From: Mobula hypostoma
Lineage: Eukaryota
Assembly (NCBI RefSeq): GCF_963921235.1
Contig: NC_086097.1
Location: 175,834,001-175,898,000, forward strand
Direction of reading: 5' to 3'
Length of the DNA stretch: 64,000 nucleotides
The translations under genes and the position numbers were made by a program. Positions 1,319-43,910 of the stretch are shown here, in pieces. Under the pieces are notes generated by a model that was not told the DNA's origin, ran no database searches, and was given only the letters and a program-made list of their open reading frames with translations. Within the stretch, counting starts at the first letter, position 1; each line of letters starts with the position of its first letter.

Positions 1319-1455
1319 GCTGTGGAGAGCTGCTGCCAGGTTTGGTCGTCACTTTGCCTCAGCATTTGAACGTGCAGGTTTGCAGCTGGTGTACCGCTCA
1401 CAGCATCCAGAACTTTGATGAGGATTGGGCATTTGTCATCACGGGCACCATGACT
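1319..1455 (-). CDS. TTR: Transthyretin exon 2 (137 nt, phase 0 to phase 2)
   Basis: Minus strand reads ...tttcctttgaatgtag|AGT CAT GGT...ACA GC|gtgagt and translates SHGARDDKCPILIKVLDAVSGTPAANLHVQMLRQSDDQTWQQLSTA. This matches the TTR exon 2 pattern (KCPLMVKVLDAVRGSPA...W...) with the same phase-2 end. Canonical AG/GT sites. Confidence 0.95.
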
Positions 1456-4400
1456 CTACATTCAAAGGAAACAGATAAGTGATGGAAAATTGAGACTTCC
1501 TCAAGGCAAAGGCATCCAGAAGTGGAGATGTAATTAATGTCAATGGATTCTCTAAGAATGCAATTCAACTGTTAACAAATTGAAATGAAGAACCAAGATA
1601 AACGTAGATGAAATTAATAGAAAACTTGCTCCTCTATAGGCCCTTTGAATGTTTCCAAATCACCTTGCAGCCAATGAAATAACATAGTCTCTATTGTTAT
1701 ATAGGAAATGCAGCAGCCAAGATGCACATAGCAAGATCCCACTACCACAACAATGATTAGGTGAAATCTTTGTACTTGACTATACTGACAGGTTCTATCC
1801 TGCTGTTATCGGGCTCTTAAACAGAAATGGATTTGAAGTTGGATTATTAGTGTGGCCTGTACAGAGATGCAGTACAAAGCTTGACTTGCATACTGCATCT
1901 CTGTATCTCATGGGTCGTCGTATCTGACCCACGACCTCCGGCACTGCATTCCAGATCTCAGCAGCATACTGTGTGAAAAAAAATCTCCCCTCAAATCCTC
2001 TTTAAAACACCTTCCACTCACATTAAACCTATACCCTCTCCTTTTGATACCCCCTGAGGATCCTGACTGCTGAATAGTGCGTCAATCAAGCTGATTGTTT
2101 TGCTTTGGATGAAAACAAGCACTCCTTCACTGCTGGCACTGCAGCTTTAGGCAAAGTCCAAAATGCTGTTATTTTTCTTGTTGATTTATTGAACCTGGCA
2201 GTCACAAATACTACCAACATCCAATGTCATTGCCCAAACGTACTTGGAAGGACAGTACAAGCTGCCTCCTGAATTGTTGCATAGCGTGGCGAAGATGCCT
2301 TTGGACAATGGGCTCCTGGGATTTAGACCGAAAACTAGGGTACAGTTAAAAACAAGAAATTGTGCAGTTCTAGTCCCTCAATATAAGATGGACATGGAAG
2401 CTTTAGAGCAGGGTGCAAATAAAATTGCCAGCATGCTGCCTGGGTTAGAGAGCATGCCTTAACAAAGCCGAACAAGCTAGGACTTCCTTCCTTCGGAGTG
2501 AAGGAAAATGAGAGGTGCTTTGATAGGGGTGTACAAGAAGGTAGGAGGCCTTGTTAAAGAGACTGCCCTTTTCCCAGGGCAGAAATGACTAATACGAAAA
2601 GGTATAATTCTAAGGTGCTTGGAGAAAAGTATAGGGCTCAGAGATTTTTATAAAGAGAGTGTTAGGTGTGTGGAACACACTGTCAAGGTGGTGGTAGAGA
2701 CAGATACATTAGGGACTTTTAAGAGACCCTTAGACTGGCACATGGATGAAAGAATGAAAGCAAAAAAAGGAGGGCTGCTGTATGTGGGGCAGGGGGAGAT
2801 TAGATAGATCTTGGAGTAGTCTAAGTGGTTGGCACAACATCATAGGCTGTACTGTTCAAAGTAAATTGTTCACAGGGTAAAAAAAATTCCCTTGCTAGAG
2901 CCTAACTGAGAAAGAGGATCAGATTTCTTCTCATGAAGAAAGTTAGAGCAGAGTACAGAGATCAGACTCTTACTTGAACGATGAAATGGATGCTTGACCT
3001 CACAATCTATCTCATTATGATCTTGCACCTTTATTTTTTAAACCTGTGTTTTCTCTGTAGTTCTTACATTTTATTCTGCATTCTGTTATTGTTTTACCTT
3101 GTTCTATAAGCACTGGCCTGATGAGCCTATAAGGAACGGGACAGACTTTAACTTTAACCTCACTACACTGTGTAACGATCTGATCTGTATGAATAGTACT
3201 CAAGTCAACCTTTCCACTGCCCATGTGACAATACTAAACCAGCAGCAACATAGTATAGACAGGAACAGACCTTTAGGCGCAACATGACTGTGCTGATATG
3301 ATGCCAATCAAAGCTAATCCTACCTACGTGCACAAGATCCATATTCCCTCCCCCCTCCCCCCATCCTCTGTTTGTTCATGTGTTCATGAAAGGGGAAAGA
3401 TTTGAGAGAGACGGAAAAGAAAATTTTTCATTCAGACTGCTGGTTTTATGGAATGAGCTGCTAAAGGAAGTGGTAGAGGCGGATTCAATAACAATATTTA
3501 AAACACATTTGAACAGGTACATGGATAGGAAAGGTGCAGAGGGGTATGGGCCAAATGCAGGCAAAAGGGACTAGGCTCTTGGTTGGTGTGGATGAGTTGT
3601 GCCAAAAGGACTGTTACCACGCTGTTTAACTCAGCGACTTTATGTTTGTCTAAATGCCTCCTAAACAGTGCTATTGTATCATCTTCCCCTGCCAGCAGGT
3701 TCCAGGCACTTACAACTTGTGTACAAAAAGCTTGCATTGTATGTCTCCTTTAAGCTTCCCCCCTCTAACCTTAAACCTATGCCCTCTAGTATGTGGCATT
3801 TCCACAGGGGGAAAATGACTTGGATTGCCCACCCTATTTATGCCTCCCACAGCTTTATAAACTTTTATCAGGTCTCCCCTCAGCCTCCAAAGCTCCAGGG
3901 GAAAAAGCCCAAGTTTGTCCAACCTCTCCTTATAATTGTCACTAATCCAGGCAAAATCCTGAAGAACCCCTTATACACCTTCTTCAGAGCCCCACGTCCT
4001 TCCTGTGATACATACACAGTACTCCACCTGCAGCCTAACTAAATATCTGAACAACTGCAACATGACTTCCTGACTTTTATCCCCAGCACCCTGACTGGGG
4101 AAGGCAAGCATGCTGAACACCTTACTTACATCTCTAAGTTGCCACTCTCAAGCATCTATGGACTTGCAAGATTTATGGTCAGTGCTCATTCTTATGGACT
4201 GAATAGAATGTGCACGGAGAGCATGTTTCCATTAGTGGTAGCGTCCAGGATGAAAAGGCACAGTCACAGAATAAAAGGACATCCCGTTAGATGAGGAGGA
4301 ATTTCTTTAGCTGGAGGGTGGTGAATCTGTGGAATTCACTGCCTCAGACGGCCGAGGAGGCAATGTATATTTAAAGCAGAAGCCTACAGGTTCTTGCTTA

Positions 4401-5499
4401 GTAAGAGTGTCAAAGCTTACAGGGAGTGTGTGTGTTGCTTGGATTTCCAGCATCTACAGGTTTTCTTTTGTTAGGGAGAATGGGGCTGAGAGGGGAAATA
4501 AATGAACCACGATTGAAGGCTGAAGCAGACTCGATGGGCCAAATGGCTTAATTCTGCTCCTAAGTCTTATGGTCTTGTAGTTTTGTGGTAAGTCGCTGTG
4601 TTTGGTTTGACTGGTGCCCGATCTACTAGACAACAGACTCAGTGTATTGGGTGCCTTGAGTTCTGGACAGAGGACAGCTGGAGCCAGAGGGAGGCCCATG
4701 AAACCTTTGGTCATCTTTTGATAATCAAGGATGCACCACGTTGACTTGGATCAGCCAGGGTGACTCTGGGTAGAGGATACATCAAATGAGCAGGGTGGAA
4801 GCAGACTGGGCCTATATTCTCTAGAACTCAGAACAGTGAGAGGAGAGGTGTTCAAATCTTATAGATCTCATTGATCCATGTAAATGCAGGGACAATGTTC
4901 CTCTGGCTTATTGGTCTTGAACCAGTGGTCAAATTATTAAAGCAAAGGATTGATCAGTCAGATGAGGTGGGGTGAAAATTCTTCACCCAGAGGGTGGTGA
5001 TCTCTGGAGTTATCTACCCAAGAGGCCAGTGGAGGAAAAGGTAGATATGTTTATTTTTAGATATTAAGGAAATTTGGCATGTCCCTGGTGATTCTCACCG
5101 ATTTTTATAAACGCACCATAGAAAGCATCCTATCTGTACTCATCACAGCTTGGTATGGCAACGACTCTGTTGTATGGCAGAGAGTTGTGAACGCAGCTCA
5201 GCACATCACGGAAATCAGCCTCCTATCTATGGACTCAGTCTATAATTCTCACTTCTTCAGTAAAGCAACCAGCATAGGCAAAGGTCCCACCCATCCCGGA
5301 TATTCTATCTTCTCTCCCTCCTATTGGACAGAAGATAGAAAAGCTGAAAGCACATACCAGCGGGTTCAAGGATAGCTTCTATCCCATTGTTATCAGGCGT
5401 TAAAAAATGAATCTTTGATTTCCCGCTCTTTCACATAGTGGACCCTGTACTCTCTGCCTGCACTACACTTTCTCCATAACTGTAGCAGTAACTGTAATA

Positions 5500-8400
5500 G
5501 AGGTAATCTAAGGGACATGGATAGACAAGGACTGATTAAAGATAGTCAGCATGGCTTCATGCATGGTAGGTCATGTCTCACCAAATTTATAGAGTTTTTC
5601 AAGGAAGTTATCAGGAAAGTGGATGAAGGCAAGGCAGTGGATATTGTCTACATGGACTTTACCAAGGCTTTTGACAAGGTCCCGCATTGGAGGTTGGTCA
5701 AGAAAGTTCAGTCGCTCAGCATGCAGGATGAAGTTGTAAATTGGATTAGACCTTGGCTTTGTGGGAGAAGCCAGAGTGGAGCAGTAGAGGGTTGCCTCTC
5801 TGACCGGAGGCCTTTGACCAGTAGAGTGCCGCAAGGATCAGTGGTGAGTCCATTGTTGTTTGTCATCTATATCAATGACCTGGATGATAATGTAGTTAAC
5901 TGGATCAGCAAGTTTGTGGATGACACCAAGACTGGGGGTGTAGTGGACAGTGAAGATGGCTATCATGGCTTGCAGAGGAATCTGCTTCAGGTAGAAAAAT
6001 GGACTGAAATATGGCAGATGGAATTTAATGCAGACAAGTAAGAGATGATGCACTTCAGTAGGACCAACCAGGGTATATCTTACACAGTGAATTCGGGGGC
6101 ACTGAGGAGTGTGGTAGAACAAACGGATCTGGGAATACAGGTCCATAATTCATTGAAAGTGGTGTCGCCGGTAGACAGGGTTGTGAAAAAAGCGTTTGGT
6201 ACATTGGCCTTCATAAATCTAAGTATTGAGTACAGGATGTTACATTGAAGTTGGATATGATGATGGTGAGGCCTAATTTGGAGTATTGTGTGAAGTTTTG
6301 GTCAGCTACCTACAGGAATGATGTAAAGAAGGTTGAAAGAGTACAAAGAGTATTTACAAGGATGTTACTGGGTCTGGAGGACCTGAGTTATAAGAGTTTA
6401 GTACTTTATTCCTTAGAACAAAGAGGTTTGAGAGGAGATAACTCTACGAGGTGTTTTTTTTTTATAAACCACCCAATAGTAACAGGGACATCGAGGAGCA
6501 GGAGATTCTGGAAAGGTGTAATAATAACAGGGTTGGCGTGGTGGAAGATTTTAATTTCCCAAATATCAATTGGCATCTCCCTAGAGCAAGGGGTTTAGAT
6601 GGGGTGGAGTTTGTTAGGTGTGTTCAGAAAGGTTTCTTGACACAATATGTAGATAAGCCTACAAGAGGAGAGGCTGTACTTTATCTGGTATTGGGAAATG
6701 AACCTGGTCAGGTGTCAGATCTCTCAGTGGGAGAGCATTTTGGAGATAGTGATCACAATGTTATCCTCTTTACTGTAGCATTGGAGAGGTAAAGGAACAG
6801 AAAAGTTAGGAAAGTGTTTATTTGGAGTAAGGGGAAATATGAGGCTATCAGGCAGGAACTTGGAAGCCTTAATTTGGACAAATGTTCTCAGGGAAATGTA
6901 CAGAAGAAATATGGCAAATATTCAGGGGATATTTGCGTGGAATTCTGCATAGGTACGTTTCAATGAGACAGGGAAAAGATGATAGGATACAGGAACTGTG
7001 GTGTACAAAGGCTGTTGAAAATCTAGTCAAGAAGAAAAGAAGAGCTTATGAAAGGTTTAAAAAAACTAGGTAATGATAGAGATCCAGAAAATTATAAGGC
7101 TAGCAAGAAGGAGATTAAGAAAGAAATTAGGAGAGCCAGAAGGAACCATGAGAAGGCCTTGGCGGACAGGATTAAGGAAAACACCAAGGTATTCTGCAAA
7201 TATTTGAAGAGCAAGAGGATAAGACGTGAGAGAATAGGACCAATCAAGTGTGGCAGTGGAAAAGTGTGCAGGGAACTGGAGGAAATAGCAGAGGTACTTA
7301 ATGAGTACTTTGCTTCAGTATTCACTACAGAAAAGGATCTTGGTGATTGTAGGGATGACTTAAAGCAGGCTGAAAAGCTTGAGCATGTAGATATTAAGAA
7401 AGAGGATGTGCTGGAGCTTTTGGAAAGCATCAAGTTGGATAAGTCACTGGGACCAGGCGAGATGTACCCCTGGCTACTGTGGGAGGCAGGGGAGGAGTTT
7501 GCTGAGCCTCTGGCAATGATCTTTGCATCATCAATGAGGATGGGAGAGGTTCTGGAGGATTGGAGGGTTGTGGATGTTGCTCCGTTATTCAAGAAAGGGA
7601 GTAGAGATAGCCCGGGGAATTATAGACCAGTGAGTCTTACTTCAGTGGTTGGTAAGTTGATGGAGAACAACTGGAGAGGCAGGTTTTAGGAACATTTGGA
7701 GAGGCATAATATGATTAGGAGTAGTCAGCACGGCTTTGTGAAAGGCAGGTCGTGCCTTACGAACCTGATTGTATTTTCTGAGGATGTGACTAAACACATT
7801 GATGGTGGTAGAGCAGTAGATGTAGTGTAAGTGGATTTCAGCAAGGCATTTGACAAGGTACCCCATGCAAGGCTTATTGAGAAAGTAAGGAGGCATGGGA
7901 TTCAAGGGGCATTGTTTTGTGGATCCAGAACTGGCTTGCCCACAGAAGGCAAAGAGCGGTTGTTGATGGGTCATATTCTGCATGGAGGTTGATGACCAGT
8001 GGTGTGCCTCAGGGATCTGTTCTGGGACCCCCTACTCATTGTGATTTTACAAATGATCTGGATGAGAAAGTGGAGGGATGTGTGAATAAATTTGCTGACG
8101 ACAAAGGTTGGGGGTGTTGTGGATAGTGTGGAGGTCTGTCAGAGTATTAATGGTAAGAATCTTGGCAGTGTGGAGGATCAGAGGGATCTTAGGGTCCGAG
8201 TACATAGGACACTGAAAGCAGCTGTGCAGGTTGACTCTGTGCTTAAGAAGGCATACGGTGCATTGGCCTTCATCAATCGTGGGATTGAGTTTAGGAGCCA
8301 AGAGGTAATGTTGCAGCTATATAGGACCCAGGTCAGACCCTACTTGGAGTATTGTGCTCAGTTTTAGTCGCCTCACTAGAGGAAGGATGTGGAAATCATA

Positions 8401-9250
8401 GAAAGGGTGTAGAGGAGATTTACAAGGATGCTGCCTGGATTGGGGAGTATGCCTTATGAGAATAGATTGAGTGAACTCAGCCTTTTCTCCTTGGAGCAAC
8501 GGAGGATGAGAGGTGACCTTATAGAGGTGTACAAGATGATGAGAGGCATTGATCGTTTGGCTAGTCAGAGGCTTTTTCCCAGGGCTGAAATGGCAAGCAC
8601 GAGAGGGCACAGTTTAAAAGCGCTTAGAAGCAGGTACAGAGGAGATGAGATGTTAGGGTTAAGTTCTTATGCAGAGAGTGGTGAGTGTGTGGAATGGGCT
8701 GCCGGTGACGGTGGTGGAGGCAGATATGACAGGGTCTTTCAAGAGACTCCTGGACAGGTACATGGAGCTCAGAAAAATAGAGGGCTATGGGTAACCCGAG
8801 GTAATTTCTAAGGTAAGGACATGTTTGGCACAGCTTTGTGGGCCGAAGGGCCTGTACTGTGCTGTAGGTTTTCTGTGTTTCTATCTGATAGAGGTATACA
8901 AAAGTATGCAGGGTAGAAAGAGGGCAAATGCAAGCAGGCTTTTTCCACTGAGGCTGGGAGGGACTACAGAGGTTGTGGGTTAAGTGTAAATGCTGAAAGG
9001 TTTAAGGGGAACAAAAGAGGAAGCTTCTTAACTCAGAGGGTTGAGAGTGTGTGGAATGAGCTTCCAGCATAAGCGGTACGTGCGAGCTTGATTTCAATGT
9101 AAAAGCAAAAATTGGATAAGTACATGGATGGTGGGGGTATCGAGGGCTATGGTCCTGGTGCAGGTTGATAGGTATAGACAGTTTAAATGTTTTTGACATG
9201 TATTAGATGGGCCTGTTTCTGTGCTGTACTTTTCAATGACTCTATGTTTC
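5500..9250 (+). mobile_element. CR1 LINE (5' truncated, decayed) interrupted by another CR1 at 6440-8884
   Basis: RT motifs QHGF, YMDFTKAFDKVPH, PQGS and KFVDD in 5517-6041. Sequence breaks at agaggagat (6439) and resumes ctgatagaggtatac (8885), i.e. LRGD|LIEVYK. Confidence 0.85.
6440..8884 (+). mobile_element. CR1 LINE with part of the APE endonuclease and RT, decayed and internally deleted
   Basis: DFNFPNINW and SDHN endonuclease motifs (6451-6792), NYRPVSLTS, PQGS and KFADD motifs, 3' UTR ending ttctgtgtttctat. Many stops and frameshifts. Confidence 0.9.
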
Positions 9251-9334
9251 TATATTGTGCATTCTGTTTCTCAACAATGAACTGATGTGATGAAGTGATC
9301 TGTCTGGATTGTTTGCAAAACAAAGTTTTTCTCT

Positions 9335-9680
9335 GATAAGCTCTTCTTGGGTTTCCAGCCAGGTACAGATACCAATATGAACCAGCACTTTGATGACAAA
9401 CTCTGCCACTTCATCAGGGATGATGCCTAGGCCTTCATCTTTGTCAAAATTCTTTTTCTCTAGTTTTATTTCAATGGCTTCCTTCACCAGGTTTTCTTTA
9501 TCTTTAACAAAAATGAAGGCCTCGCTCTAGGTAAGAACTGGAACTTGATTGTAAACAAAGTGGGGCTGTGGAAATCTGATTGGATAAGAACTAATCAGTC
9601 TGGAGAGATGGATGTTTGGAGTATATATCCCTGCTGAAGATGGCGGAGTTTGTCATCAAAATGTCTGTTAGAATTGATAC
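9335..9680. mobile_element. Penelope-like element remnant: two short pieces in inverted orientation, each with a decayed hammerhead motif
   Basis: Minus piece encodes KEAIEIKLEKKNFDKDEGL and plus piece FNKNEGLALGKNW (GIY-YIG C-terminal tail type). Motifs ctgatga-a-gtggcagagtttgtcatc-aaag (minus, 9417-9385) and ctgctga-a-gatggcggagtttgtcatc-aaaatgtc (9631-9665). Confidence 0.65.
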
Positions 9681-10139
9681 TGCTTTACCTTGTTCTACCT
9701 GATTCTGATTCTGAAAAGCCATCAAGTTAGGTCTAACACAAAAGGGCTGTTCCTCTGTGTCATAGAGTCATAGTGTCATACAGTATGGATACAGCCTCTT
9801 CGGCCCGACTTCTCCATGCCAGCCAATATTGCAACCTAAGCTCGTCCTATCTGCCTGCATTTAACCCATATCCCTCTTAATCTTTTTCATCTGTGCATCC
9901 ATCCAAATTGTAGAAAGGTAACCAGGGGTTGAATTTTATGCCACCAGTGGAATGATTAGGGAGGATATCAGCAAAAATATTTTCTCTCAATGAGCGAGGA
10001 TTTGGAATTCACAGGAGGAGAAAGGTAGAGACAGAAACAATCCCCATGCTTAATAAGTATCTGAATGAGCCCAGGAAGAGTTGAAGTGTCCAAGGAGAAG
10101 TGGTATTCATCTACAGTCCATCACTGGGAGTACAAATAA

Positions 10140-10795
10140 ATGGAATCAGAATCAGGTTTATTATTGGGAAATTTGTTAACTTAATGGCAGCAGTTCAATG
10201 CAATATATGATAATATAGAAAGAAAAAAATAAGTAAATTGATTATAGTAAGTATATATATGTACATAGAATAGATTAAAAATAGTGCAAAACCAGAAATA
10301 ATATATACTAAAAAAAAGTGAGGGAGTATTCATGGGTTCAATGTCCATTTAGGAATTGGATGGCAGAGTGGAAGCAGGTGTTCCTGAATCGCTGAGCATG
10401 TACCTTCAAGCTTCTGTACCTCCTTCCTGCCGGTAACAATGAGAAGAGGCATACCTTGGGTGATGGAGGGTCCTTAATAATGGACGTCGCCTGTCTATGG
10501 AGGCTAATACCCATGATGGAGCTGATCAGTTTTATGACTTAGTGTAGCTTCTTCTGGTCCTGTGCAGTCGTCCCTCCCCATACCAGACAGTGATGCAGCC
10601 TGTCAGAATGCTTTCCATGGTGCATGTATAGAAGATAGAGTGTTTTAGTTGACAAACAAAATCTCTTCAAACTTCTAATGAAATATAGTTGCTGTCGTGC
10701 CTTCTTTATAGCTGCATCAATATGTTGTGTCCAGGTTAGTTCCTCAGAGATATTGGGACTCAGGAATTTGAAAATGCTTACTCTCTCCACTCTGC
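10140..10795 (-). mobile_element. Rex/Babar-like LINE 3' fragment
   Basis: ERVSIFKFL...LTWTQHIDAAIKKARQQLYFIRSL and an aataaacctgattctgat tail. Similar fragments lie at ~5078-5470(+), 15340-16470(+), 24700-25540(-) and 60490-61040(-). Confidence 0.7.
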
Positions 10796-11568
10796 TCTTT
10801 CTTGGAAAACCTGTGTATAATTTATGTCCAGCTTACTGCAAATGCTGCTTATTTGATGGTATACGTCTGTGATGCTGCTGTGAACTTTTCATTGCACCTG
10901 TACACATATGTATTTGTGCATATGACAATAATTTTGGTTTTGGCTTTGGAAATTTAGTAAATAGAACATATTGGCTGCATGTTTTAGTTTTCAGTCACTG
11001 GGCAATAATGAACTAAAATATAATTCAGCACAGCACACAATGTCTGTGCTGAATACGTTGCTAAATAATGGTAAACTTCTGCTTGCATGAGATCCATATT
11101 CTTCCTTTCTGTACATAAGATTTACATAAACTACTCTGTTGTTTCGTCCCAGGTGAAGCCGAAAAGAAAATATTCTCTACAGACGCCAGTACCGGCAGCC
11201 AGAAGACACAAAAGCCTGAAAGCACATGCCACTTGAGAAAAGGACAGCTTCAATCCCACTATTATTAGACTCTTGAACAGACCTCTTGTACGGTAAGATT
11301 GACTCTTAGTCTCACTTGATCTTGAACTTTATTGTTTAGCTCTACTGCACTTATTCAGTAGTTTTTACACTTCATTCTGAGTCATAATTGTTTTACCTTA
11401 TTCTAGCTCAATGCATTGTGTAGTAATTTGATCTGAATAAACAGTATGCAAGACAAACTTTTCACTGGGACATATGACAATATTAAAACCAATTCTGCCA
11501 ATACCAATGCAATCACCAATAAGTATCCCCCTAAAAGAAAGACTTACCGCCTTATTGGAAATACTTAC

Positions 11569-11631
11569 CACACTTGTGGCTCCACTGGAGGCAGTGAGGG
11601 CGAACACAAACAACAACAGTGCATGGAACAT
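11569..11631 (-). CDS. TTR: Transthyretin exon 1 coding part (signal peptide MFHALLLFVFALTASSGATSV)
   Basis: ATG 55-60 nt downstream of a TATAAA, hydrophobic signal peptide, GTG|GTAAGT donor in phase 0 that joins in frame to exon 2 (…GATSV|SHGARDDKC), like bird TTR (…APLVSHGSVDSKC). An in-frame upstream ATG at 11649 would add MYRECK. Confidence 0.88.
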
Positions 11632-11685
11632 TTTGCACTCTCTGTACATCAATACGAGGTGGAGCTGTTGTGTCTGAGGGCAGAC

Positions 11686-11780
11686 TTTATAGTACACCCA
11701 GGCAGGGGTCACCCAATCACTAACCTCCAAACTGCTGACTTAGATTATTATCTCAATAAACACTGGGCAAATCAGTAACT
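11686..11780 (-). promoter_or_regulatory. TTR proximal promoter: TATA box, ATTGG (inverted CCAAT), HNF6-, FoxA- and HNF1-like sites
   Basis: Minus strand: GTTACTGATT (11779-11770), TGTTTATT (11762-11755), AATAATC (11749-11743), TCAGCAG (11738-11732), ATTGG (11717-11713), TATAAA (11691-11686). Order and spacing resemble the mammalian TTR promoter as recalled. Confidence 0.8.
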
Positions 11781-11989
11781 CGTGGAATGGGGTGCTCATT
11801 GGACAACAACAAAAGTCTCCCCCTTTAATGCAGCCCCCGAGTTCAGAGCAGCTTTAGCAAGGCAATGAAACCGTGATGAACGGTTTGCACAGTTGGTTAA
11901 TGCAAAATGTTTAAAACAGCTTTTGGTGTTGTTGCTTTTCCAACAAATCTGTAATGACTTTATTTAAAAATGCTAGCATAGAATCAGTG

Positions 11990-12260
11990 CGTGCACCACT
12001 GGCACAGTTAGCCACTGCCTCCCAGCTGCAGAGACCCAGGTTCGATTCTGACTTTTGGGCACCGTCTGTGTAGAGTTTACATTTCCTCCCTGTGAGCGTG
12101 TGATTTTTCTCTGGGGCTCTGGTTTCCTCGCACACCCCAAAGTTGGTTGGTAAATTGGCTGCAGTAAGCTGTCCCCAGGTGTGAGAGTGAGAGGAGGAAT
12201 CGGGCGGGGCGGGGGGTCATTGATAGGAACGTGGGGAAAGTAAGATGGGATTAGTGTCGA
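11990..12260 (+). mobile_element. tRNA-derived V-SINE/HE1-like SINE, decayed
   Basis: B-box-like ggttcgattc followed by gtctgtgtagagtttacatttcctccctgtg and ctctggtttcctcgcacaccccaaa, typical of V-domain SINEs. An antisense relative lies near 61640-61800. Confidence 0.6.
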
Positions 12261-12531
12261 CATGTACCTAAGGGTTTGCAGGGATTCTGTTTGCCTGTCT
12301 CAAGCTAGATTCTGAAATCAAAGAAGAGCTCATATGCCAGCAGATCTAGGCTACTGGAGGACGTAAAATTACAAGTTATAGATCCCTCTCCCTTGATATT
12401 TCTCTGATTTATTCTCTCTCCAAGTCCTGCCAAATTTTGCAGAGTCAGAGAGTAGTATGGCACGGACACAGCCCTTCAGCTCATCACATCTACGCTGACC
12501 TTTTTACTCATGTACACTAATCCTATTTGCC

Positions 12532-14099
12532 AGATGCTCTGCATCCCAGAGTGCTTAAGGAAGTAGCCCAAGAAATAGTGGATGCATTAGTGATAATTTT
12601 TCAAAACTCGTTAGATTCTGGACTAGTTCCTGAGGATTGGAAGGTGGCTAATGTAACCCCACTTTTTAAAAAAGGAGGGAGAGAGAAACCGGGGAATTAT
12701 AGACCGGTTAGCCTGACATCGGTGGTGGGGAAACTGCTAGAGTCAGTTATCAAAGGTGTGATAACAGCACATTTGGAAAGCGGTGAAATCATCGAACAAA
12801 GTCAGCATGGATTTGTGAAAGGAAAATCATGTCTGACGAATCTCATAGAATTTTTTGAGGATGTAATTAGTAGAGTGGATAGGGGAGAACCAGTGGATGT
12901 GATATATTTGGATTTTCAAAAGGCTTTTGACAAGGTCCCACACAGGAGATTAGTGTGCAAACTTAAAGCACACGGTATTGGGGGTAAGGTATTGATGTGG
13001 ATAGAGAATTGGTTGGTAGACAGGAAGCAAAGAGTGGGAATAAACGGGACCTTTTCAGAAAGGCAGGCAGTGACTAGTGGGGTACCGCAAGGCTCAGTGC
13101 TGGGACCCCAGTTGTTTACAATATATATTAATGACTTGGATGAGGGAATTAGATGCAGCATCTCAAAGTTTGCGGATGACACGAAGCTGGGCGGCAGTGT
13201 TAACTGTGAGGAGGATGCTAAGAGGATGCAGGGTGACTTGGATAGGTTAGGTGAGTGGGCAAATTCATGGCAGATGCAATTTAATGTGGATAAATGTGAA
13301 GTTATCCACTTTGGTGGCAAAAACAGGAAAACAGATTATTATCTGAATGGTGGCCGATTAGGAAAAGGGGAGGTGCAACGAGACCTGGGTGTCATTATAC
13401 ACCAGTCATTGAAAGTGGGCATGCAGGTACAGCAAGCGGTGAAAAAGGCGAATGGTATGCTGGCATTTATAGCGAGAGGATTCGAGTACAGGAGCAGGGA
13501 GGTACTACTGCAGTTGTACAAGGCCTTGGTGAGACCACACCTGGAGTATTGTGTGCAGTTTTGGTCCCCTAATCTGAGGAAAGACATCCTTGCCATAGAA
13601 GGAGTACAAAGAAGGTTCACCAGATTGATTCCTGGGATGGCAGAATTTTCATATGATGAAAGACTGGATGAACTAGGCTTATACTCGTTGGAATTTAGAA
13701 GATTGAGGGGGGATCTGATTGAAATGTATAAAAGCCTAAAGGGATTGGACAGGCTAGATGCAGGAAGATTGTTCCCGATGTTGGGGAAGTCCAGAACAAG
13801 GGGTCACAGTTTGAGGATAAAGGGGAAGCCTTTTAGGACCGAGATTAGGAAAAACTTCTTCACACAGAGAGTGGTGAATCTGTGGAATTCTCTGCCGCAG
13901 GAAACAGTTGAGGCCAGTTCATTGGCTATATTTAAGAGGGAGTTAGATATGGCCCTTGTGGCTAAAGGGATCAGGGGGTATGGAGAGAAGGCTGGTGCAG
14001 GGTTCTGAGTTGGATGATCAGCCATGATCATACTGAATGGTGGTGCAGGATCAAAGGGCCGAATGGCCTACTCCTGCACCTATTTTCTATGTTTCTATG
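12532..14099 (+). mobile_element. Young 5'-truncated CR1 LINE with an uninterrupted RT-to-C-terminus reading frame
   Basis: 493-codon open frame (12527-14008) with QHGF, DFQKAFDKVPH, PQGS and KFADD; ttctatgtttctatg tail; flanked by ttgcc at 12527-12531 and 14100-14104. Confidence 0.95.
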
Positions 14100-17315: not shown

Positions 17316-17854
17316 AAATAAATCTCAGAGTAGTATATGATGGCATATACATACTTGGATAATTTTCCTTTTGAACCTCTGCTATCAGAGTACAGGTACC
17401 CGCGAACAAGTCCTCTTTTGTACTGTTTCTTTGTTTTTATTGTCGTTTATAATTTTTCTGTCTGCAAACAACAAATTTCACAATATACTGTATGCCATTG
17501 ATAGAAAAAGTTGATTCTGAATGTCCCTGGATCATTAACTCAGGTCTCCAGTGCACAGGCATAATCATTGCACACTAACCCTTCCTTTATATCAGCAAAT
17601 ATCATCTAGCAATTGAAGAGACATTGACTATATAGCTCCCAAAGAGATAGTAGCTAGTAGCATGTTCGAAATGTTATCAGACTGTAAAGTAAGCAAACAT
17701 GAGAGACTATCTGTACAGAGCAAGGTTCCACAAACATTAAAGAGATAAATACAGATAATCATTTGTTTTTCTGTGGTGCTCATAGAATGATAAATATTGC
17801 TCAGAGCTTTTGAAGGTTTGCAGTGAAACGTGGCATCAGCCTCAAGGCATTTAA

Positions 17855-19132
17855 GGTAACTCGGTTGACTCTGGGTCTAGGACAGGCACTGTGATCTACA
17901 ACACATTCAGGGTAACTCGGTTGGCTCTGGGTCTAGGACAGGCACTGTGATCGACAACACATTCAGGGTAACTCAGTTGGCTCTGGGTCTAGGACAGGCA
18001 CTGTGATCTACAACACATTCAGGGTAACTCGGTTGACTCTGGGTCTAGGACAGGCACTGTGATCTACAACACATTCAGGGTAACTCGGTTGACTCTGGGT
18101 CTAGGACAGGCACTGTGATCTACAACACATTCAGGGTAACTCGGTTGGCTCTGGGTCTAGGACAGGCACTGTGATCTACAACACATTCAGGGTAACTCGG
18201 TTGGCTCTGGGTCTAGGACAGGCACTGTGATCGACAACACATTCAGGGTAACTCAGTTGGCTCTGGGTCTAGGACAGGCACTGTGATCTACAACACATTC
18301 AGGGTAACTCGGTTGACTCTGGGTCTAGGACAGGCACTGTGATCTACAACACATTCAGGGTAACTCGGTTGACTCTGGGTCTAGGACAGGCACTGTGATC
18401 TACAACACATTCAGGGTAACTCGGTTGGCTCTGGGTCTAGGACAGGCACTGTGATCTACAACACATTCAGGGTAACTCGGTTGGCTCTGGGTCTAGGACA
18501 GGCACTGTGATCTACAACACATTCAGGGTAACTCGGTTGGCTATGGGTCTAGGACAGGCACTGTGATCTACAACACATTCAGGGTAACTCGGTTGGCTCT
18601 GGGTCTAGGACAGGCACTGTGATCTACAACACATTCAGGGTAACTCAGTTGGCTCTGGGTCTAGGACAGGCACTGTGATCTACAACACATTCAGGGTAAC
18701 TCGGTTGGCTATGGGTCTAGGACAGGCACTGTGATCTACAACACATTCAGGGTAACTCGGTTGGCTCTGGGTCTAGGACAGGCACTGTGATCTACAACAC
18801 ATTCAGGGTAACTCAGTTGGCTCTGGGTCTAGGACAGGCACTGTGATCTACAACACATTCAGGGTAACTCGGTTGGCTCTGGGTCTAGGACAGGCACTGT
18901 GATCTACAACACATTCAGGGTAACTCGGTTGGCTATGGGTCTAGGACAGGCACTGTGATCTACAACACATTCAGGGTAACTCGGTTGGCTATGGGTCTAG
19001 GACAGGCACTGTGATCGACAACACATTCAGGGTAACTCGGTTGGCTATGGGTCTAGGACAGGCACTGTGATCTACAACACATTCAGGGTAACTCGGTTGA
19101 CTCTGGGTCTAGGACAGGCACTGTGTTCGACA
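17855..19132. repeat. 56-bp minisatellite, 22 full copies plus one partial
   Basis: Unit ggtaactcggttg(a/g)ct(c/a)tgggtctaggacaggcactgtgatc(t/g)acaacacattcag starts every 56 nt from 17855 to 19087. No spacers. Confidence 0.97.
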
Positions 19133-19350
19133 AAAGTAGGAAAGTCACAGACAGTACAAGATGAAGAAATAAGCAATTAAAATTGAGGTGTGTTGGAGTT
19201 TCCCCTTTCAGAGAACGATGAAGCTCTGCAACTCTCTGCTCCCAAGGGTGGTGGCAGCTGGATCGTTAAATGTATTTAAGTTGGACGTAGATGAATATTT
19301 GAAAGATTGAGGTCTTTTTAAGGTCATAGGGCATAAATGAGGTAGGCAGC

Positions 19351-21800
19351 CAGAACTGTAGAGGGAAGGGGCAGAGTCCCTATAAAGAAGGTGGGGGGAG
19401 GGTGGGAAGGAGAAGGCTGGTAGGTTCCAGGTGAAAAACCAGTACGGGGAAAGATAAAGGGGTGGGGGAAGGGAGGCAGGGAGGTGACAGGCAGGAAAGG
19501 TGAAGAAAGAATAGGGGAAAACACAATAGGTAGTAGAATGAGGTGGAACCATGAGGGAGGAGGTAGGCAGCTGGGGGAGGGGGCAGAGTAACATAGGGAT
19601 AGGGGAAGGGAGGGGTACCAAGGGGCTGGAGACTACCTAGACGGTATATGAGGTGTTGCTCCTCCAAGCTGAGTTTAGCCTCATCATGGCAGTAGAGGAG
19701 GCCATGTATGGACATATCTAAATGGGAGTGGGAAGCAGAGTTGAAATGGGTGGCTACTGGGAGATCCTGTCTGTTGTGGCGGATGGAGCGGAGGTGCTCG
19801 ACAAAGTGGTCCCCCAATCTGCGTCGGGTTTCACCGATGTAGAGGAGGCCGCACCGGGAGCACCGGATGTAATAGATGACCCCAACAGACGCACAAGTGA
19901 AGTGTTGCCTCACTTGGAAGTACTGTTTGGGGCTCTGAATGGTGGCAAGAGAGGAGGTGTAGGGACAGGTGTAGCACTTGTGCTTACAGGGATAAGTTCC
20001 AGGTGGGAGATCCGTGGGGAGGGGCGTGTAGACCAGGGAGTCACAGAGGGACCGATCCCTGCGGAAGGCAGAAGGGGGTGGAGAGGGAAAGATGTGCTTA
20101 GTGGTGGGGTCCTGTTGAAGGTGGCGGAAGTTGCGGAGGATAATGTGTTGGATCCGGAGGCTGGTGGGGTGGTAGGTGAGGACAAGGGGAACTCTGTCCC
20201 TGTTGTGGTGGTGGGAGGATGGGGTGAGGGCCGAAGTGTGGGAAATAGAGAAGATGTGGGTGAGGGCATCATTGATGACTGTAGAAGGGAAACCACGATC
20301 CTTAAAGAAAGAGGACATTTGAGATGTCCTGGAATGGAAAACCTCATCCTCGGAGCAGATGCGGCAGAGACGGAGGAACTGGGAATAGGGAATGTCATTT
20401 TCGCATGTGGCGGGGTGGGAAGAGATATAGTCGAGGTAGTTATGAGAGTCAGTGGGCTTGTAGAAGATGTCAGTGGACAATCTGTCTCCATTGATGGAGA
20501 CCGAGAGATCGAGAAAGGGGAGAGAAGTGTCTGAGATAGACCAAGTGAATTTGAGGGCTGGGTGGAAGTTTGAAGTAAAGTCGATGAAATTGACGAGCTC
20601 AACATGGGTGCAGGAAGCAGCACCAATGTAGTCGTCAATGTAGTGAAGGAAAAGTTGGGGAGCAGCACCAGAATAGGTTTGGAGCACAGACTGTTCCACA
20701 TAACCAACGAAGAGGCAGGCATAGCTGGGGCCCATGCGAGTGCCCATAGTTACACCCTTGGTCTGAAGAAAGTGGGAAGAGCCAAAAGAGAAGTTATTTA
20801 GTTTAAGAACCAGTTCCGCCAACCGGAGGAGGGTAGTGGTGGTGGGGAACTGGTGAGTCTACTATCCAGGAAGTAGCGGAGGGCTTTGAGGCCTTCTTGA
20901 TGGGGAATGGAGGTGTATAAGGATTGGACATCCATAGTAAAAATGAAGCGGTTGGACTGGGGAACTGGAAGTTATTGAAGAGGTGGAGGGCATGGGATGT
21001 ATCCCGGATATAGGTGCGGAGGGACTGAACTATAGGTGACAAAATGGAGTCCGGGTAGGCAGATACAAGTTTGGTGGGACAGGAGCAGGCAGAAACTATG
21101 GGTCTGCCAGTACAGTCAGACTTGTGTATCTTTGGGAGGAGGTAAAACCAAGCGGTATGGGGTGTGGGAATTATGAGTTTAGGGGCTGAGGATGGAAGGT
21201 CTCCGGAATTGATAAGGGCGGTGATAGTACGGGAGACAATGGTTTGATGTTTTTTGGTGGGGTCCTGTTCCAGGGGTAAGTAAGAGGAGGTGTCAGAGAG
21301 CTGCCGTTTGGCCTCAGTGAGCCAGACTACTACGGCACCACCTTGGTCAGCGGGTTTGATGGTGAGGTTGGGATTAGTGCGGAGAGAGTGGAGGGCAGTG
21401 CGTTCAGAGGGAGTGAGGTTGGAACAGGAAAGAGGAGTGGTGAAGTTGAGATGGTTGATGTCTCGGCGACAGTTGGAGATAAAAAGATCGAGTGCAGGTA
21501 GAAGGCCCGGGTATCCAGGAGGAGGAGGAGGGTTGAAGACGGGAGAAGGAGTCCTCAGTAGGGGGAGGGGAATCCTTGCCAAAGAAGTAGGTTCAGAGAT
21601 GTAGGCGACGGAAGAGTTCAGTGTCATGGCGGGCATGGAACTCACTGAGGTGTGGACGGAGGGGGACAAAAGTGAGGCTCTTGCTAAGAACAGAACGTAC
21701 TGCCTCAGAGAGGGGAAGGTCAGAGGGGATGGTGAAGACACGGCAGGGGTTGGGGCTGGGGTCGGAGGAGGGTGAAGGGTGGGAGGTCTCAGGAGGGAAA
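19351..21800 (-). mobile_element. Penelope-like retroelement (RT + GIY-YIG endonuclease), frameshifted
   Basis: IKPADQGGAVVV, FYLLPKIHK, GRPIVS (20803-21741); GVTMGTRMGPSYA, YIDD, FLDL and VIYYIRCSRCGLLYIGETRRRLGDHFVEH (19380-20822). Confidence 0.93.
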
Positions 21801-35501: not shown

Positions 35502-36620
35502 CTAATCAGCTATAACATTGTCAGTACCTTTCACATGTTTGATTTTTAAGTCACCTTCCTGCAATACTAGGCTCCAATTTAACAACCTTCTATTCTTATC
35601 CTTCATTTTATTTAGAAACACCAACTGATTATAACCCATGTAAACCACAAGTGGTCTCTGAGCAACAGAAAGGTTTTGAGGTCTCTGATCATAGGCCTCA
35701 AAATATTGTAAAGCCAGAATAAGTGCTAGCAATTCCTTTTCAACAGTTGAATAATTTTTCTGGTGTACATTAAAGTTCTTTGAGAAATAAGCTACTGGAT
35801 ATTCAATGTCATCCACTCCCTTCTGTAACAGTACTGCCCCAGCAGCTTCGTCACTAACACCGGTTGTTATAGAAAATGGCTTTGGAAAGACAGGTGCTTT
35901 GAGCACAGGATGATAACAGGATAGTTTTCAAACATTCAAACGCCTCCTGGCAAAGGTCACTCCCTGCAAACCTTTCACTCTTCCCTAGGAGCTTTGTTAG
36001 GGGGAGAGCGATGTCAGCAAAGTTCTTCCATAATTTTCTATAATACCCAACCATTCCTAAAACCCTTCTTAAAGCTTTGTTGTCGGTCAGAACAGGAACT
36101 TCAGCAATAGCCTGAGCCTTGGCCACTACAGGAGCCAGCTGACCTTGGCCCACCACATAACCCAGAGATGTGACTGTAGCATGGCCAAAGTCACTTTTAG
36201 CTAGCTTCACAGTAAGATTGGCCTTGGAAGGTCTGTCAAACCGTTTCTCTACAACTGCAGTATGTTCTTCCCAAGTGTCATTCCGGACCACTAAGTCATT
36301 GATATGAACCCCTGTGCTTTCTAATCCTCCAATCACAGAATTGATTATTCTTTGAAATGTTTCTAGAGGATTCTTCATCCCGAAGTGTAAAACATTGTAT
36401 TCATACAGTCTAGATGGTGTCACAAATGTTGATATCTCTTTAACCCTCTCTGTTAAAGGAACACCCCAGTATCCTTTTAACAAGTCAATCTTAATAAGGT
36501 ATTTAGCCTTCCCCACTCCATCAATACAGTTATCCATTCTCTTTCTTCGTTCTTTCTTGTTTCTAATTTCTTCTTCAACTATTTTACTTTTCTCAAAGTT
36601 CACTCTGTGAAGATGCCATT
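35502..36620 (-). pseudogene. Gypsy RT-RNase H remnant
   Basis: KIDLLKGYWGVPL, FGMKNPLETFQR, degenerate catalytic motif (VHINDL), GMVGYYRK, YPVAYFSK...NYSTVEKELLA. Frameshift near 35880. Confidence 0.9.
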
Positions 36621-37051
36621 TCATAGGCTGGACTAAATTCATAATGTTGTCATTCACTGCAGCTGTGCACCCTTTCAAAACACCAATTAGTCCTTTTACT
36701 TGTTTTTTCGGCTTTGGGTCCAACTGATGGACCTTGTCAGTAATATTTTTGAAAACAATGGACTTCTGACAACTTGGTGAGTCTAGATTCAGTGAGAAAA
36801 CATGTTTTTCCATTCCATTATCAGATTTCACTACTCCATTTTGTACTCCAATAATCCTCACAGCTGCAATTTCAACAAACAAGTGTCTTATTTTGACTCG
36901 ACCATTTTGTAAACTTTCCTTAGCAAAGTCACAAAGCTTACTAAATCCCTTCCAAAGTTCTTTGAGTAGGGTCAAAGGTCCTTTTGGCCTGTAACTGAAC
37001 ACAAGTTCCAACAAACTACCCTTCACTGCCTTCTGAATCGAATCTCCAACA

Positions 37052-37642
37052 CTAAATAAGAAGAGGGAAACCTCCTCGTTCCCATTTTTCCTCATTTCTC
37101 ACACAATGTGCTTTAATCATGGTCTTAAGAGTTGAGGTGAGCTGTTCCAAGGCTCCCTTGGTCTCTGTGTGATATGTAAATGACACCATGTGTTTAGCTT
37201 CTAATTCTCTAGCTATCCCCTGGAATGTTCTCGAAGTAAAGTTATTACCCTGGTCAAATTGAATTTCTTTGGGCAGACCTACCAGTGTGTAAAACTTACT
37301 GTATGCTGTTACCACAATCTTGGTCTCAATGTTTTCAAAAGACTCTGCTTCAGGGGACCTAGACACAGCACACACAATTGTTAACACATACTGATAACCA
37401 GCTGCAGTCTTTTGCCATGGGCCCACACAATTCACTACATCATTCCTTAAACTAGGCCAGTAAAATTCCTTCACAATCCTATTCACTGTCTCTCTCACTC
37501 CATGATGTCCACCTAAAGGCATACTGTAAGCCATGTTTAAAATTTCAGCCTTGTAACCTTTCAAAACCACCACGTGACTTGCAGGCACTGTGGCTGGTCT
37601 CCACTTCCTCATCAACACCCCATCTTTAAGGTAACATCCCAC
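37052..37642 (-). pseudogene. Gypsy integrase remnant, located upstream of RT
   Basis: GGHHGVRET...FYWPSLRNDV (zinc-binding region), GYQYVLTIVC, GLPKEIQFDQGNNFTS, YHTETKGALEQ. Confidence 0.88.
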
Positions 37643-40600
37643 GGACTCTCTGAACCTCCTCTCCTGTGAGAGCCATCTCCCTTAAACCCACCATTCCAGA
37701 ATCTCGCTTCTGTTCCTCGATACATTCCTTTCTCATCACAGACAAACTTTTCTTATACACCTTACCCTTATCAGCTGTACTACCCTCTAAGTCCTGCTGA
37801 AATTTGGAAGGTAGAAAAGTCTCTGACACATCATAATAATTTAAACCTCTGGTCTTGCTTTTGCAGGTCCCAATAGCAACTTTGCTCATCAGCTGAATTG
37901 CTGAAACACTCTTATCTTGCAGAGCTGTCAACATGCCTCCATTGTTTACCAAATTCTGAATCATCATCAGGCTGATGAGAATATGAAAGAGGCCAATCAA
38001 CCTCTTTATCAACTTCCTCCGACCTTCACTACGCCTTGCTTCCCTCACAGAACACTGAATAACAGCATGACCTTGCAGGTGCTCAAATGTCCAAACAAAA
38101 TTCAACAAACTAGCACATCCTGTCTCAGCAGGCCTTTGTCCTGCAAGCAGGGTCAAAGGTCGTTCAACCAATCCAAACTTTTCCATCACTTTATCCAAAA
38201 GCCCAGGAACAGCACTTTTCCCATTACTTCCAGCAACATTGACCTCAACAGGTTCTAAAACACGGTCTACTACAAATGACTGCGAATCCTCACATTCCAC
38301 TGGTACCAAGGTTAACCCCTTACTCACTGAACCAAGATCATCTGACACACAAAAACTACATTCCCTTTCAACCAAGTCAGGCACCTCAGACCTTAACTGA
38401 GTTTCAGCACGAGGTTCAGAATCCTGTGAACTCACAAGTACTTCAACAACTTGGTGCATCTAAAACCCTGCTACGTGCCTCTGGTGAAGAGTAAACCTGC
38501 AACCTCGAGGACAGTGAGGAAATGGTCGGAGGAGGCTTATGAAGCGCTCCAGGGTTGTTTTGAGGTGACAGACTGGCAGGCACTCTGTGAGCCACATGGA
38601 GAGGATATTGATGGGCTCACAGAATGCATCACTGATTACATTAACTTCTGTGTGGACTGCAATGTTCCGACAAGAACTGTCCTTTGTTATTCAAATAACA
38701 AGCCATGGGTGACAAAGGACATTAAGGACATCCTGAACGCTAAAAAGAGGGCGTTTAGAGATGGAAATAGGGAGGAGCTGAGGGCAATACTGAGGGACCT
38801 GAAAGCCAGGATCAGGGAGGCTAAAGACAGGTACAGGAGGAAGCTTGAGTGGAAACTCCAGCAGAACAACATGAGAGAGGTCTGGAGGGGGATGAGGACC
38901 ATCACTGGGTTCCGGCAAACAGGCAACAGAGGAGCTGAGGGCAGTGTGGACAGGGTCAACGAACTTAACCTGTTTGTTAACAGATTTGACATTGTGACCC
39001 CTGCCCATCCCCCACATGAGCCATCTGTTGTCGGCCCCCAACCAACACATGTTCCACTCTCCCCTCCTACCCCTCCTCACAGTCCCCCACCCTGTTCACA
39101 TGACTATACCCCTCCCCCACACAAAACCACCATGGTGAGCTTCACGGCTGAACAGGTGAGAAGACAGCTGAAACGTCTCAACCCAAGCAAGGCTGCAGGA
39201 CCAGATGGTGTCAGTACCAGGGTGCTCAAAGCCTGTGCCCCTCAGCTATATGAAGTACTTCGCCATGTATTCAGCCTGAGCCTGAGGCTCCGGAGGGTTC
39301 CTGTATTGTGGAAGTCGTCCTGCCTCGTCCCTGTGCCGAAGACGCCGCACCCCAGCGGCCTCAATGACTACAGACCGGTGGCATTGACCTCCCACGTCAT
39401 GAAGACCCTGGAGAGACTTGTTCTGGAGCTGCCCCGGCCTATGGTCAGGCTACACTTAGATCCCCTCCAGTTCGCCTACCAGCCCCGACTAGGAATTGAG
39501 GATGCCATCGTCTACCTGCTGAACTGTGTCTACGCCCACCTGGACAAGCTAGTGAGCACTGTGAGGGTCATGTTTTTTGACTTCTCCAGTGCGTTCAACA
39601 CCATCCGCCCTGCTCTGCTGGGGGAGAAGCTGACAGCGATGCAGGTGGATGCTTCCCTGGTATCATGGATTCTTGATTACCTGATTGGCAGACCACAGTA
39701 CGTGTGCTTGCAACACTGTGTGTCCGACAGAGTGATCAGCAGCACTGGGGCTCCACAGGGGACTGTCTTGTCTCCCTTTCTCTTCACCATTTACACCTCG
39801 GACTTCAACTACTGCACAGAGTCTTGTCATCTTCAGAAGTTTTTGGATGGCTCTGCATAGTTGGATGCATCAGCAAGGGAGATGAGGCTAAGCACAGGGC
39901 TACTGTAGGAAACTTTGTCACATGGTGTGAGCAGAATTATCTGCAGCTTAATGTGAAAAAGACTAAGGAGCTGGTGGTAGACCTGAGGAGAGCTAAGGTA
40001 CCGGTGACCCCTGTTTCCATCCAGGGGGTCAGTGTGGACATGGTGGAGGATTACAAATACCTGGGGATATGAATTGACAATAAACTGGACTGGTCAAAGA
40101 ACACTGAGGCTGTCTACAAGAAGGGTCAGAGCCGTCTCTATTTCCTGAGGAGACTGAGGTCTTTTAACATCTGCTGGACAATGCTGAGGATGTTCTATGA
40201 GTCTGTGGTGGCCAGTGCGATCATGTTTGCTGTTGTGTGCTGGGGCAGCAGGCTGAGGGTAGCAGACACCAACAGAATCAACAAACTCATTGGTAAGGCC
40301 AGTGATGTTGTGGGGATGGAACTGGACTCTCTGACGGTGGTGTCTGAAAGGAGGATGCTGTCCAGGTTGCAAGCCATCTTGGGCAATGTCTCCCATCCAC
40401 TACATAATGTACTGGGTGGGCACAGGAGTACATTCAGCCAGAGACTCATTCCTCCGAGATGCAGCACAAAGCGTCATAGGAAGTCATTCCTGCCTGTGGC
40501 CATCAAACTTTACAACTCCTCCGTTGGAGGGTCAGACGCCCAGTGCCGGTAGGCTGGTCCTGGACTTATTTCATAATTTACTGGCATAATTTACATATTA

Positions 40601-41783: not shown

Positions 41784-41906
41784 GGGGAGAGAGGGGAGAG
41801 AGGGGGGAGAGGGGGGGGAGGGGGGGAGGGGGGAGAGGGGAGAGGGGGAGAGGGGGGAGAGGGGGAGAGGGGAGAGGGGGGAGAGGGGGGAGAGGGGGGA
41901 GAGGGG

Positions 41907-41946
<40 letters not shown>

Positions 41947-41976
41947 GGGGGGGAGGGGGGGGGAGGGGGGGAGGGG

Positions 41977-42041
<65 letters not shown>

Positions 42042-43873: not shown

Positions 43874-43910
<37 letters not shown>

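What the first reader, a model, noticed from the sequence alone, without database searches (positions are those of the whole stretch)
11686..11780. TTR liver promoter block apparently conserved between this fish and mammals
Seen (minus strand): GTTACTGATTTGCCCAGTGTTTATTGAGATAATAATCTAAGTCAGCAGTTTGGAGGTTAGTGATTGG...TATAAA. As I recall it, the mammalian TTR promoter reads GTTACTTATTCTCCTTTTGTTGACTAAGTCAATAATCAGAATCAGCAGGTTTG...GATTGG, containing HNF1, FoxA (HNF3) and HNF6 sites. The two align nearly gap-free over ~55 nt. Base-level conservation of a tissue-specific proximal promoter across jawed vertebrates would be uncommon. The mammalian sequence is from memory and must be verified.
Basis: partly seen in the sequence, partly recalled or inferred. 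Interest (0 to 1): 0.7.

Follow-up and report, generated by a model that had tools for sequence, protein, structure and literature searches.

The report
Ray transthyretin promoter matches mammals
The short control region in front of a devil ray's transthyretin gene still aligns base for base with the mouse and human liver promoter, although the sites that matter most in mouse have been rearranged.

Summary
Confirmed, with a correction. The stretch is the proximal promoter of transthyretin (TTR) in a ray. Exons 1 and 2 are 100% identical to a protein annotated as Mobula hypostoma TTR, and an RNA-type contig joins them. Against published mouse and human promoters (hand alignment), 34 of 48 gap-free columns are identical, then 7 of 7 (mouse) after one gap, and 8 of 8 further down. 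Chance is about 5e-5 over 200x200 bases; no null sequence reached the score. The homology is real. But the sites are not all kept. The HNF1 site is intact and a forward FoxA site sits in register. The classical strong FoxA/HNF6 core is changed into a GATA hexamer, and the upstream HNF4 and weak FoxA sites have no counterpart. The best-kept part (22 of 25 columns) flanks the mapped cores and holds a half-MAF-like motif. Most likely: an ancestral jawed-vertebrate liver promoter under purifying selection, with site turnover inside. Function, start site and tissue are inferred, and only rays and two mammals were compared. Ten literature searches found no such alignment, but the key review was unavailable. 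A new, distant member of a well-known promoter; moderate interest.

The parts
11725..11779 (-). Conserved promoter block (columns 1-55), 41 of 56 columns identical to mouse, 40 of 56 to human
   Evidence: (hand alignment)
11767..11779 (-). HNF1-like site; 10 of 13 identical to mouse and human, all 9 positions that fit the consensus are shared
   Evidence: (3 mismatches to recalled consensus GTTAATNATTAAC)
11755..11762 (-). Forward FoxA site, perfect TRTTTRYH; same octamer as the verified rat aldolase B site; mammals have a FoxA-compatible variant in register (6 of 8)
   Evidence: (Table S2 row 3; Table S1)
11748..11753 (-). GATA hexamer (WGATAR, recalled) where mammals have the HNF6 / reverse strong FoxA core
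11743..11749 (-). Heptamer identical in ray, mouse and human; flank of the mammalian HNF6/FoxA site
11725..11739 (-). Best-kept segment downstream of the mapped cores; holds a half-MAF-like motif (TGCTGAC on + strand, 11733-11739; one change in mammals)
   Evidence: (10 copies in 64 kb); factor assignment recalled and untested
11713..11717 (-). Reverse CCAAT pentamer; present in human 3 bases out of register, absent in mouse
11696..11703 (-). Second conserved island, 8 of 8 to mouse and 6 of 8 to human, on the same diagonal
11686..11691 (-). TATA box; 10 bases closer to the block than in mouse and human (column 89 against 99)
11660..11661 (-). Inferred start site (pyrimidine-purine step 31-32 bases from the TATA box); not observed
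   Evidence: inference
11569..11631 (-). TTR exon 1, coding part (signal peptide, 21 codons); an in-frame upstream ATG at 11649 starts the annotated protein
1456..11568 (-). TTR intron 1, 10,113 bases, GT..AG
   Evidence: (loose end equals start of exon 2)
1319..1455 (-). TTR exon 2, 137 bases

Best explanation
This is the orthologous proximal promoter of the ray TTR gene, inherited with the mammalian one from the last common ancestor of jawed vertebrates and kept alignable by purifying selection. It most likely works as a compact hepatocyte promoter: HNF1 binds at 11779-11767, FoxA binds 4 bases further on the same strand, GATA4/6 binds next to it, a further factor binds the conserved segment 11749-11725, and together they load the TATA box about 35 bases downstream. 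Inside the shared frame the core has turned over: mammals carry HNF6 and a reverse FoxA site where the ray carries GATA. Shown: gene identity, splicing, position, sequence homology, motif presence. Inferred: start site, factor binding, liver activity, direction of the turnover.
For: Exon 1 and exon 2 are 100% identical to annotated Mobula hypostoma TTR, class Chondrichthyes; the full protein hits solved TTRs at E 1.5e-44. A contig of run X12 covers 11637-11569 and runs on into the first 14 bases of exon 2. 34 of 48 gap-free identities with both mammals, same strand, same place before the TATA box. Outside the HNF1 and forward FoxA sites 18 of 27 columns still match (P 3e-5). The two changes in the forward FoxA site stay within cores that bound FoxA2 in EMSA. 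In two related organisms (about 95% identical) the only listed changes in columns 1-55 are at columns 38 and 39, both already mismatched to mammals (P 0.06).
Against: No functional test. Tissue of X12 unknown, and its contig ends in adapter at 11637, so no start site. The block is not significantly better kept than its flanks among close relatives (1 of 55 and 2 of 55 changes; P 0.24 and 0.42). Single motifs are common: 64 HNF1-like sites in the window, 5 with a strict FoxA site within 30 bases, 3 of those also with a TATAAA downstream. The sites that matter most in mouse reporters (HNF4, strong FoxA) are the ones not kept. The human core promoter is reported weak without the mouse enhancer, so the block may not suffice. 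No intermediate lineage was seen.
Confidence: 0.72

Rival explanations
1. Convergence: two liver promoters independently gathered HNF1 and FoxA sites before a TATA box, and the alignment is a by-product of shared motifs in A+T-rich DNA.
For: HNF1-like plus FoxA pairs occur 5 times in 64 kb; the central mammalian core is not shared; upstream of column 1 no likeness is seen by eye.
Against: 18 of 27 identities outside those two sites (P 3e-5), 22 of 25 in columns 31-55, and 8 of 8 on the same diagonal further down; same orthologous gene, strand and spacing.
Confidence: 0.05
2. The block is homologous, but it is kept for expression outside the liver (choroid plexus, thymic mimetic cells, retinal pigment epithelium, yolk sac) or for core-promoter structure, through factors other than the HNFs.
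For: The best-kept columns lie beside, not on, the mapped HNF cores. TTR-positive cells are reported in catshark thymus medulla. Choroid plexus regulators of TTR are described as unidentified.
Against: The HNF1 site is kept at every consensus position and the ray has a perfect FoxA site; lamprey TTR is reported highest in liver.
Confidence: 0.17
3. The block is homologous and all mammalian sites work in the ray too, by shifted or degenerate sites.
For: A forward 13-mer at 11760-11748 fits the recalled HNF6 consensus with 2 mismatches; an octamer of the mammalian FoxA core recurs 13 bases downstream in the ray (11743-11736).
Against: Two-mismatch HNF6 matches occur 509 times in the window; the in-register core is changed at two positions that the ONECUT structure paper describes as base contacts (my mapping); no HNF4 match with at most 1 mismatch in 11620-12000.
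Confidence: 0.05
4. Artefact: chance alignment, or mammalian contamination of the assembly.
For: Block edges were chosen after looking; identity counts are by hand.
Against: The null tests take the best segment anywhere. 71% identity is far too low for contamination, and the block lies inside contigs of two other organisms at about 95% identity (records 16 and 31).
Confidence: 0.01

Closest known systems
Mouse Ttr proximal promoter (-202; HNF4, HNF3-W, HNF1, HNF3-S, HNF6, AP-1; work of Costa and colleagues, seen only through review PMC12786076 and its supplement)
   Same: Same gene, strand and position; 41 of 56 columns; HNF1 site; FoxA-compatible octamer in register; 8 of 8 island before the TATA box; 21-base spacer between the islands.
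   Different: HNF6 / reverse strong FoxA core replaced by a GATA hexamer; no HNF4 or weak FoxA counterpart upstream; TATA box 10 bases closer; no enhancer identified.
Human TTR core promoter (-189/+1, as in E03.TTR; also picked as conserved module CRM10 by Chuah et al., per the review)
   Same: 40 of 56 columns; reverse CCAAT pentamer in both; 6 of 8 in the second island.
   Different: As for mouse; CCAAT pentamer is 3 bases out of register.
Ancient conserved non-coding elements shared by cartilaginous fish and mammals
   Same: Alignable non-coding DNA across the deepest split of jawed vertebrates.
   Different: Those are mostly longer, distal and near developmental regulators; this is a 55-base proximal promoter of a plasma-protein gene.
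FoxA2 sites in vertebrate TTR promoters (Yamauchi and Ishihara 2009, FEBS J; recalled, not held)
   Same: As recalled, reports liver-factor sites in TTR promoters across vertebrates.
   Different: As recalled, a motif-level statement; whether it shows a base alignment or includes cartilaginous fish could not be checked.

Membership tests
TTR gene (against HIUase paralogue) | Protein closest to TTR, with signal peptide and TTR-type end | tested here: met
   the full protein lacks the HIUase end tetrapeptide (recalled criterion); Pfam PF00576 alone was below its cut-off on the 46-residue piece and does not separate the two
TTR gene (against HIUase paralogue) | Spliced exon 1 to exon 2 | tested here: met
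   one contig, 14-base loose end equal to the start of exon 2
Mammalian-type TTR proximal promoter | Sequence homology beyond chance at the orthologous position | tested here: met
   (hand counts)
Mammalian-type TTR proximal promoter | HNF1 site | tested here: met
   sequence level only; 10 of 13 identical, consensus recalled
Mammalian-type TTR proximal promoter | Strong FoxA site (HNF3-S) on the reverse strand, inside the standard probe (columns 19-45) | tested here: not met
   no reverse-strand TRTTKRY in the block; a forward site at 11762-11755 instead; probe; orientation of the mouse site is my reading of the probe
Mammalian-type TTR proximal promoter | HNF6/ONECUT core overlapping HNF3-S | tested here: not met
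   columns 29-30 differ; no match with at most 1 mismatch; core mapped by inference from the text of PMC11490551, figure not seen
Mammalian-type TTR proximal promoter | HNF4 site and weak FoxA site upstream of HNF1 | tested here: not met
   no HNF4 match with at most 1 mismatch and no other FoxA match upstream in 11780-12000; no likeness by eye
Mammalian-type TTR proximal promoter | TATA box about 30 bases before the start | tested here: inconclusive
   TATAAA present; start site not observed
Mammalian-type TTR proximal promoter | Hepatocyte-specific activity that depends on the sites | not testable with these tools
   needs reporter, EMSA or ChIP
Ancient conserved non-coding element of jawed vertebrates | Present in several lineages between rays and mammals | not testable with these tools
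   no vertebrate genome collection; only close relatives reached

The most novel reading that the evidence does not exclude
The most conserved part of the TTR promoter since the ray-mammal split (columns 31-55 and 77-84) is not the HNF cores mapped in mouse but a neighbouring, unassigned element, perhaps a MAF/AP-1-type half site. One of the best-studied liver promoters, used in gene-therapy vectors, would then hold an overlooked ancient site, and the GATA versus HNF6/FoxA switch in its middle would be a two-base rewiring inside a fixed frame, with the TATA distance changed by one helical turn.
Probability: 0.3. Interest if true: 0.68.

Novelty: new member of a known kind. Interest (0 to 1): 0.46.

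Why it matters
It would date a base-alignable, differentiated-tissue promoter to the origin of jawed vertebrates, whereas deep non-coding conservation is usually tied to developmental genes (recalled). It gives a natural phylogenetic footprint for a promoter used in several clinical liver vectors: a short list of positions to mutate, and a compact natural variant to test. It is a clean single-locus case of conserved frame with site turnover. It does not reveal a new kind of element.

Tried and rejected
No whole genome held, so exons 3-4 and gene neighbours were not seen. Plasmid collection: no match to the promoter. Metagenome pattern scans for orthologous promoters: 0 hits and 5 hits; all 5 show likeness only over the pattern and lie among bacterial-type open frames, so chance. 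Sequencing runs: no RNA holder on record listed; run X18 does not cover the block, no evidence either way; 4 of 24 listed runs were laid. Footprinting with close relatives lacked power; 25 of 29 differences of the X13 contig were listed, all 11 of the X9 contig. No repeat or hairpin structure of note in 11600-12000; the promoter is single-copy in the window. Earlier scan findings: nothing by sequence or words. Literature: ten searches showed no paper aligning a non-mammalian TTR promoter with mammals; two TTR evolution reviews hold no word 'promoter'. Four primary papers were not held. Clustering of mismatches in the FoxA/HNF6 core is not significant by itself (4 of 11 columns, P 0.40; columns 14-30, P 0.047): the claim of turnover rests on which bases changed, not on how many.

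Full report
The gene. On the minus strand an ATG at 11631 opens a 21-codon signal-peptide exon ending at a GT donor. A motif scan found a second exon at 1455-1319 whose best solved relatives are transthyretins (E 5e-13). A protein search with that exon returned 2 proteins of 8 candidates: one annotated as Mobula hypostoma TTR (100% identical) and one as Pristis pectinata TTR (78%). Exon 1 matches the first at 21 of 21. Mobula is a batoid cartilaginous fish. The full protein hits TTR structures at E 1.5e-44. A contig of run X12 (RNA by the tool's guess) covers 11637-11569 and continues with 14 bases equal to the start of exon 2, so the 10,113-base intron is spliced. Its depth figure (about 20,000, against 4-14 for the other listed contigs of that run) fits an abundant transcript, but the tool warns that contig depth is a poor measure, the tissue is unknown, and the contig ends in adapter, so no start site is seen.

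The observation. The quoted bases are at 11779-11713 and the TATA box at 11691-11686. Mouse and human TTR promoters are printed in supplement S1 of PMC12786076 (part 1 of 3 read). I aligned by hand, column 1 = 11779. Columns 1-48 need no gap; against mouse the mismatches are columns 7, 11, 12, 15, 16, 17, 22, 24, 26, 29, 30, 38, 39 and 41, so 34 of 48; human also gives 34 of 48. After one extra mammalian base, 7 of 7 (mouse) or 6 of 7 (human) follow. The next 21 columns match mouse at 5 of 21, yet are 21 long in all three species, and columns 77-84 match 8 of 8 and 6 of 8. The TATA box is at column 89 in the ray and 99 in both mammals.

Chance. With the two base compositions the match rate is 0.276; P(>=34 of 48) is 6e-10 per placement, 5e-5 over 200x200 placements on both strands, 5e-4 at a rate of 0.30 and 7e-3 at 0.33. 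The best ungapped score (+1/-1) is 20; the ray promoter reached at most 16 against 6000 random 200-mers and 17 against 3166 overlapping 200-mers of the window. Leaving out the HNF1 and forward FoxA sites, 18 of 27 columns still match (P 3e-5), which shared motifs alone do not explain. Contamination is excluded by the low identity and by contigs of two other organisms that span the block at about 95%.

Which sites are kept. A review lists HNF1, FoxA (strong and weak), HNF4, HNF6, C/EBP and AP-1 for the mouse promoter and says HNF4 and strong FoxA matter most, while the enhancer can make up for HNF1 and weak FoxA (section read; primary papers not held). HNF1: columns 1-13 fit the recalled consensus at the same 9 positions in ray and mammals. 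FoxA: the standard TTR probe spans columns 19-45. The ray has a perfect TRTTTRYH octamer at columns 18-25, the same as a verified rat aldolase B site; the mammalian octamer there differs at two bases, and cores of that type bound FoxA2 in the same paper's EMSA table. The mammalian reverse-strand site at columns 34-27 has no counterpart. HNF6: from the text of an ONECUT structure paper (passages; figure not seen) I map the TTR core to the reverse of columns 28-33; the ray differs at columns 29-30, positions described there as base contacts, and reads as a GATA hexamer. The mutant mouse promoter places the weak FoxA site just upstream of column 1; neither it nor an HNF4 site has a match in the ray. 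So the frame is kept and the functional core has turned over. The best-kept stretch, 22 of 25 in columns 31-55, lies beside the mapped cores and holds a half-MAF-like heptamer that occurs 10 times in 64 kb (14 motifs were scanned, so this is a lead only).

Relatives. Of 24 listed runs, 4 were laid. In two related organisms the listed changes within columns 1-55 fall only on columns 38 and 39, both mismatched to mammals (P 0.06); the block is not significantly slower than its flanks (P 0.24, 0.42). This agrees with constraint but does not show it.

Mechanism. Most likely (0.72) an ancestral liver promoter: HNF1, FoxA, GATA and one more factor on 55 bases, about 35 bases from a TATA box whose distance differs from mammals by 10 bases, one helical turn. 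Binding, start site and tissue are inferred. TTR is described as highest in lamprey liver and is seen in catshark thymus cells (passages), and its choroid plexus regulators as unknown (passages), so conservation for another tissue stays open (0.17). Motifs alone are weak evidence: 64 HNF1-like sites lie in the window, 5 with a FoxA site close by.

What is known. The mammalian promoter is textbook; mouse-human likeness was noted in 1986. Ten searches of the open library (listings only, unless cited above) showed no alignment with a non-mammal; two reviews of TTR evolution do not mention the promoter (word search). I recall a 2009 review reporting FoxA2 sites in vertebrate TTR promoters; it was not held, and elephant shark-human element catalogues could not be checked, so priority is uncertain. 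The FOXA2 consensus was also seen in PMC13543952 (passages); PMC7681243 gave nothing on the promoter (passages).

Verdict. Real homology, ordinary gene, known kind of element, unusually distant member, with a testable twist: what is conserved is not what mouse mutagenesis ranked first. Interest 0.46; novel case 0.3 likely, 0.68 if true. The mammalian comparison rests on hand counts and should be repeated by machine with more species.

Noticed in passing
window 11649-11632 (-): In-frame upstream ATG: the annotated Mobula protein starts here, 6 residues before the sawfish start; it has T at -3 against A at -3 for ATG 11631 and would lie only 11 bases from the inferred cap, so the annotation may be too long.
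   Followed up: partly
window 11743-11736 (-): An octamer identical to mammalian columns 24-31 (part of the FoxA/AP-1 core) recurs 13 bases downstream in the ray; by my estimate about 0.07 expected by chance in a 55x55 comparison.
   Followed up: partly
window 1455-1430 (-): Exon 2 starts with the long N-terminal stretch seen in chicken TTR; long N-termini are linked to T3 preference in PMC4324301.
   Followed up: no
window 12521-14008 (+): 495-residue open frame of a LINE-type reverse transcriptase (family recalled as CR1-like), about 740 bases upstream of the block; it and a SINE-like stretch at about 11985-12260 limit the unique upstream DNA to about 200 bases.
   Followed up: no
window 1456-11568: Intron 1 is 10.1 kb and holds many LINE-like fragments; a repeat at about 11344-11467 draws hundreds of contigs.
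   Followed up: no
window 17848-19133: Tandem array of 23 copies of a 56-base unit, 97% matches.
   Followed up: no
window 19380-20858 (-): 492-residue open frame resembling a Penelope-type element (reverse transcriptase plus GIY-YIG; recalled, not scanned).
   Followed up: no
window 35857-38459 (-): Open frames resembling pieces of an LTR retrotransposon (recalled, not scanned).
   Followed up: no
window 41784-44442: 2.7-kb G/A-only microsatellite, period 7, about 380 copies.
   Followed up: no
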